Below are positions 21,301 to 24,300 of a stretch of 53,688 bases of DNA, one piece after another. A program made the translations under genes and the position numbers. Source of the DNA: Aplysia californica (lineage: Eukaryota); assembly GCF_000002075.1 (NCBI RefSeq), contig NW_004797572.1, positions 366,613 through 420,300 of the forward strand, read 5' to 3'. Positions within the stretch are counted from its first letter, which is position 1, and every line of letters starts with the position of its first letter. The notes below the pieces were generated by a model, which saw nothing but the letters and a program-made list of their open reading frames with translations, did no database searches and was not told where the DNA came from.

Positions 21301-24300
21301 CTACACAGGTTCCCCCAGTGCATCAGTCAACTTACAAAACCTAGGAAATTAAAAGGTTGTTGTTTTTTTAAGTAAGGCTATTCTCCGGCTTAACAGACAT
21401 TGTGCATATTACACAGTTCAGCAATGTTTTGGCACAGCAACAGATTTGTACTATGTAGGGAGAATACAGCGTAATTTTAAAAACCTTTGTGTAAATGTTT
21501 TGTGGATATTCAAAACTGAATTTAGACACATGAAGTTCTATTTGAAGGAACAGTGTATCAGAATAATTCCTAGCACATTGTGTGCGAGGTGGATCAAGGT
21601 GAAGAAATACAGCTCCCTATCATTTAAGTAGAAAATCCATTTTGCAAATACCTCCATCAATGTTGTGTCCTTCAAATTTCAAAAGCTGAGCAATTTTTGT
21701 TGTGTTTTTTATACTGATTTTTAAAAAAAAATCACACTTGTCCCAACAAATCACAATTTAGCACTGCTATCTTCTAAAGCCACTGACAAAATTCCGCAAC
21801 AAGTTACGGTTTCCCTTCTTTTTTTATCTAAAAAGCAGAAATTCTTGCCGTGGATTCATTAAATGTAATAAGTACCATGAGTACAAGGACACACCTAAAA
21901 CTTTAGGCTGAAAAGTACCAAAATTTAATTTAGCTCAGCCAGAGTGGCAACAGGAAACTGACCCTCGAGAATCCAAAGTAACAAGGTGTTTAGCCAGGAA
22001 CCCCCCCCAGTTTGACTAAAATTCCATTGCTGGTACGCCGTGAGCTATACAACAGTACTACATGTACTCAAGAAGTTATGAGAAGGGGTCTCTACACAGG
22101 CGAATGGCATGTATTTTATTTTGGATTGAAAGTCACTCAGTGGAGAGGAAACAATTGACAGCAAAGAAAAACAATGAAGGATAAACAGATAAGTCAGGAG
22201 ATCATGAGGACGGAATAACAAAAAGGAACCAGAAGAGTATATATTAGAAGGCCTCTAAGGTTTAGTAGTTTTATATGTGAACTAAACAAAGTAGCTTTGA
22301 ACTACCCTTTCAGCTGACTCCGACACCTGTAACCATTTTACGAGCCAGACATCAAAGCTTCTTTGCTCAGCGAGGAAACAATTACACTCACTACCTCATA
22401 AAGAAATTATATACAACAGGATCATGACACACGATACACAAAGTTGTATGATAGTTCCTCCAGACCTCAAAAAGTGAGTGTTAGAACACCACAAGTCCAC
22501 CAGGAACATAACAGAGTTGCACTGTCAGTCTAGTAAAACAAATGGAAATTAAACCAATAAACACTGAAGCATCCACGGCGGATAAAAAGGTGCATAAACA
22601 CTAAAGTAACTGAATAAAATTTGGTGACAGAAGCAAACTATACGATATGTACACTCCATTGTACGAACCTTCAAATACTTTTTCTCCATAAGCTGGTTCG
22701 GGTGGAAGGAAAGGACAATAAAATGGGTAAGGGAAAAGGTGGAACATAAAACACTACTTAAAAAGTACGAGTGGTACTGATTACCAAAGCATCATAACAG
22801 GACTTGTACATCTGAATATGAAAAAAATACAATTGAGAAAGCTCCGTATATCAGCAGCACTTGTAAAACTGTTCCGTCAGCTTACCTCCAATTCATGGTT
22901 AATTTCTTTTGGAACATGCAAACACATAGCTTAGATTGGAACAGAGGTTGCCTGAGAAAAGGCAAAAGAAAAGGAGGAGGGTGGCAACCAATACCACAAA
23001 ATATACTAGTCTTCTACCCATTCCCAAAAATAATTTTACTTTGTCCATGCAGAACAGATCAAATTAATTTCACATTTTGTCATAAAGGTAAAAAACAGAT
23101 GTTAGAGCATACTATGATTTCAGGAGTAGGATTACTAATCAAAAGACAACAAAACAAAAATAAAAATGACATTGCAACAATCAAGTACACCTGAAGAAGA
23201 CAAACTATTTTTTAGGTCCTTTATTTTACTATTTTTGTTTCTTTAGGCGTTGCTTTTTTTAAGAGTTGCATTTTTTGTTCTTTTGTTTCGCTTTTGACAG
23301 GGGTGGTGGGGTGAACAGTGTAATAGGATGTATACCAAATTCATAAAAGGTCCCAGCTGCTTCCGAGTGCCATTTTGAAAATCGGTGAAAAAAGAATGGG
23401 TGCCGGACAGACAATACCAAATGCAATAAAACAAAATAGACGACAAAAGAAGAGAACAAGAGGAGGATCCCATGCCAAAAAACAAAAAGCTTTAAAATCA
23501 AGTGGTATTTCTGCCACCCCAAAGCACATGCCAATGCCACCAGCAAGCTCTGTGATGAATGACTGTGCTGTAAAAAATACTTCATAAAGCTACTTTAATA
23601 AAAAGGATAGAGAAGATTTTATCCAGTGTAAGCTCCTGGGATATTCTGCATTGCTGGTGAGAATAGTCACATCACGATGCCATGCATCTCTCACAATAAT
23701 GCTTTCTGTTTAAATACACAACTATAAAAAGCTTATTCTTACCCTCTTAAAAAAAGGAATTATTATAAAAATTGATTTTTTGTACACTTAAAAATTATTT
23801 TTAAATGAAAAAGAAAAACCACACAAAAAGAAAATAGATAAATGAAATAGAGTCGAATAAAAAATTTTAAAATAGAAAAAAAATTAAATAAAAGCTTGCC
23901 AACTTTTTCAAAACCCAATCAGGGCCCCACACGCTCTAACATCAGATTACCTAACAATGAACAAAATTACATCAATTGGGACTGGCTTCGGTTTTACAAA
24001 TTCCCGAAATTCTGGACAGTTGGCTCCCAACTGTGAATCAAACTGGCTATGTCAGGGCAGAGCTGGGCCATGTCCCCTTGTATAGATAGGCTCAAAGTTC
24101 TTTTTCTTGCCAGCACTGAGATTATTTTAGTAATGGCAATATAAGGGTGAAATAAAAAATGATAAAAAGTAAACTAACAAAATAGAGAACAATGGAAGAA
24201 TTGTTTTAATCAAAACTGATAATTAAAAAAATAATGGTCTTTTCAAGCCAAAAAGTCCCAAAACAACTTGAGATCACACAAGTAAATTTATTATGCCATT

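What the first reader, a model, noticed from the sequence alone, without database searches (positions are those of the whole stretch)
22886..22951. Stop-then-start exon: poison exon or N-terminus of a DHR-2-only short DOCK isoform
Seen: very strong acceptor (ccttttcttttgccttttctcag) and donor (GAG|gtaagc). The DOCK frame reads [21 protein letters not shown], and the ATG stays in frame with exon w29. Established: the DOCK-A SH3 region binds ELMO and autoinhibits, and DHR-1 binds PIP3. Inference: inclusion in the full transcript would trigger NMD or truncate before DHR-2. Use from an internal promoter would give a GEF lacking SH3 and DHR-1, potentially ELMO- and lipid-independent.
Basis: partly seen in the sequence, partly recalled or inferred. 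Interest (0 to 1): 0.7.

Follow-up and report, generated by a model that had tools for sequence, protein, structure and literature searches.

The report
Skipped stop exon in sea-hare DOCK1
A 66-base stretch in a sea-hare DOCK1 intron has unusually strong splice signals and a stop codon, but the spliced transcripts seen here skip it, so it is likely a rarely used cryptic exon that would only destroy the message, and likely not the start of a short DOCK protein.

Summary
The window holds Aplysia californica DOCK1 on the minus strand. The sequence claims check out: strong acceptor and donor, phase-0 frame [24 protein letters not shown] at 22927-22925. It is the best-scoring unannotated splice pair in 46 kb of DOCK1 introns and beats 46 of 47 real exons. 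A genome control still gives about 0.15 such pairs per window by chance. The 12-kb intron is a cassette hotspot with three in-frame exons in RefSeq models and counterparts in other snails. All 24 inclusion routes tested give a premature stop. In 3 of 4 contig runs the spliced DOCK1 path skips it, 0 of 4 show a junction at either end, and 4 of 4 run unspliced through its donor (contigs drop rare forms). None of 233 fetched proteins carries the peptide. A short isoform would be 943 aa with half the ARM solenoid, not DHR-2 only. Verdict: cryptic or decayed exon about 0.55, regulated poison exon 0.30, last exon 0.07, internal start 0.06. Modest interest.

The parts
22886..22951 (-). Candidate 66-nt phase-0 exon X with in-frame TAA at its codon 7 (22933-22931)
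   Evidence: no junction seen
22952..22975 (-). Polypyrimidine tract and acceptor of X (score 12.9; 52-nt AG-free zone; UGC at -13 and -35; no YTRAY branch motif within 70 nt)
22880..22885 (-). Donor gtaagc (score 11.7)
22925..22927 (-). In-frame ATG after the stop (context AAGCT ATG T)
22886..22929 (-). Weak inner acceptors giving 44-nt (22929) and 20-nt (22905) frameshifting versions; no AG gives a stop-free in-frame exon of under 66 nt
26979..27074 (-). Upstream constitutive DOCK1 exon, ends in phase 0
24564..24590 (-). Cassette microexon A, 27 nt, QTIKNRRLE; RefSeq X1/X2; spliced in X8, X5, X15; counterparts in other gastropods
22669..22692 (-). Cassette microexon B, 24 nt, LMEKKYLK; RefSeq X3; matches Babylonia EKKQLK
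17456..17506 (-). Cassette exon C, 51 nt, [17 protein letters not shown]; RefSeq X1/X2; spliced in X8, X5, X15; conserved in gastropods
14835..15028 (-). Downstream constitutive DOCK1 exon, aligns to human DOCK5 957-1020 in the ARM/TPR solenoid

Best explanation
The 66-nt unit is an exon-like stretch that the spliced DOCK1 transcripts seen here skip, and it is likely a cryptic or decayed cassette with no regulated role; if spliced in, it would stop translation at about residue 935-944 and the mRNA would likely be removed by nonsense-mediated decay. Shown: strong sites, phase-0 frame, TAA at codon 7, a premature stop on every inclusion route tested, and skipping in the assembled mRNA path. Inferred: decay of any included form (not tested in Aplysia), at most low-level inclusion, and possible origin as a degenerate duplicate of microexon A that lost an in-frame acceptor.
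For: Contigs of X8, X5 and X15 (3 of 4 contig runs, three studies) join 27074-26979 to A, C and 15028, skipping X (tables 5 and 7). 0 of 4 show a joint or a listed loose end at 22886 or 22951. 4 of 4 bridge the donor unspliced, and 2 of 4 (X8, X15) bridge the acceptor. The depth of bin 22854-23155 is fully explained by these unspliced contigs in 4 of 4 runs. X is absent from 3 of 3 Aplysia RefSeq isoforms, and its peptide from 233 of 233 fetched proteins. Equally strong pairs with stops in all frames occur twice in 622 kb of control DNA. Exon-likeness of X is below 98% of real exons and GC is 0.38 against 0.46. The gastropod B microexon already has its Aplysia match in LMEKKYLK, not in X.
Against: X is the strongest pair in 46 kb and stronger than 46 of 47 real exons. 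It lies in the cassette-hotspot intron, is a multiple of 3, and has a 52-nt AG-free zone. Its last 7 codons resemble gastropod microexon peptides: only 24-43 of 6843 control donors score as high, and 13 of 1310 AG|GT donors match microexon A as well at DNA level (noticed first, tested after). Its exon-likeness is in the top 10% of intronic 66-mers. Contigs drop rare variants, 3 loose ends and 17 pieces were not displayed, and NMD isoforms can be missed by ordinary RNA-seq (PMC8091538, abstract).
Confidence: 0.55

Rival explanations
1. Regulated poison cassette (AS-NMD). Some cells include X instead of, or beside, microexons A and B. The TAA then triggers decay and lowers DOCK1 and Rac activation. 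It may be a duplicate of microexon A turned into an off-switch, working like SCN8A 18N.
For: Top splice-site pair. A premature stop on 24 of 24 routes. Position between A and B in an intron with regulated cassettes. Peptide and DNA resemblance to A-type microexons at about the 0.4-1.7% level. NMD hides such forms (PMC8091538 abstract).
Against: 0 of 4 contig runs show a junction. No conservation could be tested. The three-way DNA alignment of A, X and B is unconvincing. About 0.15 such pairs per window arise by chance.
Confidence: 0.3
2. Alternative last exon. The strong acceptor is used, the donor is read through, and an intronic poly(A) site ends the mRNA. The product is a 934-943-aa SH3/DHR-1/half-ARM protein without DHR-2, a possible ELMO sink.
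For: 4 of 4 contig runs cross the donor unspliced. The listed intronic contigs of X12 lie only in 20081-22948. AATAAA lies at 22120 and ATTAAA at 21929.
Against: No upstream junction at 22951, and X8 and X15 cross the acceptor unspliced. There is no read pile-up or end site in three poly(A) raw-read runs, though these lack DOCK exon cover and are a weak test. Such hexamers are common in AT-rich DNA, and nascent RNA explains the cover.
Confidence: 0.07
3. Internal-promoter first or hybrid exon. The ATG at 22927 starts a 943-aa DOCK (14 new residues, half the ARM solenoid, DHR-2, tail) free of SH3/ELMO and DHR-1 control.
For: In-frame ATG with a purine at -3 and a strong donor. SH3-less DOCK180 is more active (PMC9688060 passage). 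Hybrid exons exist in human (10.1101/2021.05.27.446076, search listing only).
Against: A coding short isoform would escape NMD, yet no junction out of 22886 appears in 4 of 4 runs. No short Aplysia protein was found among 113-2000-aa hits, 541-1722-aa hits or 150 of 156 representatives. No TATA motif or CpG enrichment upstream. The strong acceptor would be unexplained, and the protein would start mid-solenoid.
Confidence: 0.06

Closest known systems
Poison (PTC-introducing) cassette exons, including cryptic ones (10.1101/2025.06.26.661736, passages read; PMC8091538, abstract; PMC11632617, search listing only)
   Same: Intronic cassette with strong splice sites whose inclusion gives a stop far upstream of the last junction.
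   Different: Inclusion, NMD sensitivity and conservation are not shown here. The 10.1101/2025.06.26.661736 main text has 0 mentions of DOCK.
SCN8A exon 18N (PMC3809569, passages read)
   Same: A stop-bearing exon beside a coding alternative, which could restrict full-length protein to some cell types.
   Different: 18N/18A is a proven, regulated, mutually exclusive pair. X shows only weak resemblance to microexon A over its last 24 nt and no demonstrated use.
RefSeq Aplysia DOCK1 isoforms X1-X3 (XP_035826551.1, XP_012940011.1, XP_035826552.1) and gastropod isoforms with cassettes at the same junction
   Same: Same intron and same phase 0. A, B and C are annotated there.
   Different: Those exons keep the frame and appear in protein models. 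X carries a stop and appears in none.
eMIC/SRRM3/4-type neural microexons (10.1101/2024.09.17.613571 and 10.1101/2021.02.24.432780, passages read)
   Same: X has a long AG-free zone and a UGC near the acceptor; A and B have microexon lengths.
   Different: X is 66 nt with a strong rather than weak 3' site. B has no UGC within 70 nt. Neural regulation is untested.

Membership tests
Poison cassette exon (AS-NMD) | Canonical acceptor and donor of usable strength | tested here: met
Poison cassette exon (AS-NMD) | Inclusion creates a stop more than 50 nt upstream of a later exon junction | tested here: met
   24 of 24 paths; many downstream exons
Poison cassette exon (AS-NMD) | Spliced into transcripts at both ends | tested here: inconclusive
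   0 of 4 contig runs show junctions, but contigs drop rare variants; 3 raw-read runs had almost no DOCK exon cover
Poison cassette exon (AS-NMD) | Inclusion rises when NMD is blocked | not testable with these tools
   no such data available
Poison cassette exon (AS-NMD) | Sequence conserved in relatives | not testable with these tools
   no other gastropod genome held; L002 and L003 are distant animals with short introns at this position
Alternative first or hybrid exon | Transcription start upstream of the exon | not testable with these tools
   no CAGE data; no TATA motif or CpG enrichment
Alternative first or hybrid exon | In-frame ATG and a donor | tested here: met
Alternative first or hybrid exon | Donor spliced to downstream exons, or a short protein on record | tested here: not met
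   0 of 4 runs; 0 of 233 proteins; limited by tissue sampling and contig filtering
Ortholog of the gastropod B microexon (ETNKQLQ / EKKQLK / GDPKQLQ) | Best Aplysia match to the B-type set, with an in-frame acceptor | tested here: not met
   B-type mean score 10.5 for exon 22692-22669 against 4.8 for X; no in-frame AG inside X
Duplicate of microexon A | Similarity above the donor background | tested here: inconclusive
   38 of 6843 donors reach X's mean against A-type peptides; 13 of 1310 at DNA level (post hoc); alignment weak
Repeat- or transposon-derived exon | Further copies in the genome | tested here: not met
   1 match (itself) for 22650-23100 (the search skips very common words)

The most novel reading that the evidence does not exclude
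X is a duplicated DOCK1 microexon converted into a regulated poison exon. One intron of gastropod DOCK1 then sets both the shape of a loop in the ARM solenoid (cassettes A, B, C) and whether the Rac GEF is made at all, an SCN8A-18N-like on/off switch in a DOCK-A gene. A bolder variant (about 0.06) is that it doubles as first exon of an ELMO- and PIP3-independent 943-aa GEF.
Probability: 0.2. Interest if true: 0.55.

Novelty: new member of a known kind. Interest (0 to 1): 0.24.

Why it matters
If X is only cryptic, it is ordinary. If regulated, it would be a splicing-coupled off-switch for a DOCK-A Rac GEF in a classic neuroscience model animal; I found no paper describing one (searches, main texts only). 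The firmer result is the context. Among the proteins fetched, only gastropod DOCK1 carries optional 5-19-residue inserts at the junction matching human DOCK5 956/957 in the ARM solenoid. These are in public gene models, but I did not find them discussed in print.

Tried and rejected
Run search: no RNA holder listed on record, which is no evidence. I laid 8 of the 24 listed runs. Raw poly(A) runs X20-22 had almost no cover on DOCK exons and look 3'-end biased, so they are uninformative. X1 behaves as DNA: 8 of the 9 substitutions in its contig over this region are listed, none in X. X12 has no contig on the DOCK exons, which proves nothing. Assembly error at the TAA or at the missing inner AG: rejected. 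X as ortholog of the Littorina ETNKQLQ microexon: attractive at first (rank 1 of 819 donors), dropped after Babylonia EKKQLK matched exon B. Rescue of the TAA by editing or readthrough: it would need two edits, and the region has no unusual fold (z -0.36). Transposon origin: single copy. The metagenome scan gave no gastropod locus: L002 and L003 are distant DOCK loci with introns of about 0.12 and 0.56 kb here, and L004-L006 were weak and not examined. The PDB search with the upstream exon found 0 hits. PMC12424998 concerns DOCK10, not DOCK1. A recalled nested gene in the human DOCK1 intron was not confirmed by the search listing and is not used. No structure or complex was predicted, as neither would decide the question.

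Full report
Gene and frame. The exon at 15028-14835 matches human DOCK5 residues 957-1020 and is 100% identical to Aplysia californica DOCK1 isoform X2. An exact spliced alignment of isoform X1 resolves 48 of 48 junctions on the minus strand without mismatch. The candidate lies between constitutive exons 27074-26979 and 15028-14835, which meet in phase 0. Pfam places this junction inside the TPR/ARM solenoid (624-1182), after SH3 and DHR-1 and before DHR-2 (1233-1630).

Context. This 12-kb interval holds three in-frame cassettes: A (24590-24564, QTIKNRRLE) and C (17506-17456) in RefSeq X1/X2, and B (22692-22669, LMEKKYLK) in X3. Other gastropods show optional inserts at the same junction: Biomphalaria, Physella, Bradybaena, Littorina (15 of 19 members listed), Haliotis (15 of 33), Babylonia and Gigantopelta. 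None of the 150 listed representatives (of 156 hits) from a wider search has the C motif. Two distant animal loci keep the intron position with short introns (L002, L003).

Chance. With matrices trained on the window's 48 junctions, X scores 12.9 (acceptor) and 11.7 (donor). The sum of 24.6 is first among intronic pairs in 46 kb and above 46 of 47 real internal exons; 2 of 40 Markov simulations reached it. In 621,578 strand-bases of control DNA from 36 other contigs, 2 pairs reached the sum, both closed in all frames, and none matched both sites separately. About one window in seven would contain such a pair. Exon-likeness is intermediate: top 10% of intronic 66-mers, but below 98% of real exons. 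The stretch is single-copy.

Consequence of inclusion. Only three AGs lie within 66 nt of the donor, giving exons of 66, 44 and 20 nt. All 24 combinations with A, B and C give a premature stop. The 66-nt form ends the protein at about residue 930-934 without A and 9 residues later with A. Decay is inferred from the general more-than-50-nt rule (10.1101/2025.06.26.661736, passage); it was not tested in Aplysia.

Transcript evidence. I laid 8 of 24 listed runs. Three raw poly(A) runs had almost no cover on DOCK exons and X1 behaved as DNA. Of four contig runs, X8, X5 and X15 (three studies; contig depths 11.7, 63.6, 50) contain the spliced path upstream exon > A > C > 15028, which skips X (tables 5 and 7). 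All four have a contig over X because they were chosen as holders. All four cross the donor unspliced, and X8 and X15 also cross the acceptor. No joint or listed loose end falls at 22886 or 22951. Three loose ends and 17 pieces were hidden, but the depth of the bin holding X equals the sum of the listed unspliced contigs in 4 of 4 runs. Contigs drop rare variants, and NMD forms can be invisible in ordinary RNA-seq (PMC8091538, abstract and outline only). This argues against abundant use but not against rare use. The same contigs confirm the letters of X, so the stop is not an assembly error.

Origin. The last seven codons (EINHELE) resemble gastropod microexon peptides. X ranked 1 of 819 window donors against Littorina ETNKQLQ. 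Against a larger control, 24-43 of 6843 donors scored as high, and 13 of 1310 matched microexon A as well in DNA. I noticed this before testing it. Babylonia EKKQLK then matched exon B far better (23 against 3), and the B-type mean favours exon B (10.5 against 4.8). X is therefore not the B ortholog. A decayed duplicate of A remains possible, but the DNA alignment is weak.

Short isoform. Passages of PMC9688060 and PMC11267001 support SH3 autoinhibition, ELMO binding and DHR-1 lipid binding, and PMC10152721 passages describe the ARM solenoid packing against SH3. An ATG-22927 product would be 943 aa starting mid-solenoid, not DHR-2 only. It would escape NMD and should be easier to see, yet no junction leaves the donor and none of 233 fetched proteins has the peptide. 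No short Aplysia protein appeared, and there is no TATA motif or CpG enrichment upstream. The 984-aa Plakobranchus model that begins near here is labelled partial and has an unrelated N-terminus.

Comparison and verdict. If used, X works like a poison cassette; SCN8A 18N is the nearest worked example (PMC3809569, passages). Membership is not established, because inclusion is inconclusive and NMD response and conservation could not be tested. Searches for DOCK1 with microexon, poison exon or short isoform terms, and for Aplysia with NMD terms, listed no paper describing this (listings seen, supplements not read). My odds are judgement, not a computed posterior: cryptic or decayed 0.55, regulated poison exon 0.30, last exon 0.07, internal start 0.06. 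Interest 0.24.

Noticed in passing
window 24590-24564, 22692-22669, 17506-17456 (minus): Cluster of in-frame cassette exons inserting 8-26 residues into the DOCK1 ARM solenoid at the position of human DOCK5 956/957. Counterparts occur in many gastropods; A- and B-type never occur together in the listed isoforms.
   Followed up: partly
window 39908-39897 (minus): 12-nt phase-1 microexon (GIED) at the start of DHR-1, present in RefSeq X1 and absent from X2.
   Followed up: partly
window about 14755-14690 (minus): Degenerate copy of the 3' end of exon 15028-14835 just downstream of it (56 of 77 columns identical); the copy has AT where the donor has GT, so it is likely dead.
   Followed up: partly
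window 25639-25960: Very high-copy repeat; thousands of poly(A)-library reads lie on 25639-25693 with T-rich loose ends.
   Followed up: no
window 20081-22948: Listed intronic contigs of run X12 fall only in this interval. Contigs of X8 and X12 (two studies) both end at 22798 with no listed loose end, though X5 and X15 run on. Unexplained; possibly chance or a separate unspliced RNA.
   Followed up: partly
window 22552-22853: Run X15 has about 1.2 more depth in this bin than its listed contig explains; an unlisted contig, possibly microexon B.
   Followed up: no
window 22781-23191 (plus): 137-codon stop-free antisense stretch across the candidate; no Pfam match; probably chance.
   Followed up: partly
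window 41877-41646 (minus): Second-strongest unannotated splice pair (sum 21.2, 232 nt, stops in the first frame) in another DOCK1 intron.
   Followed up: no
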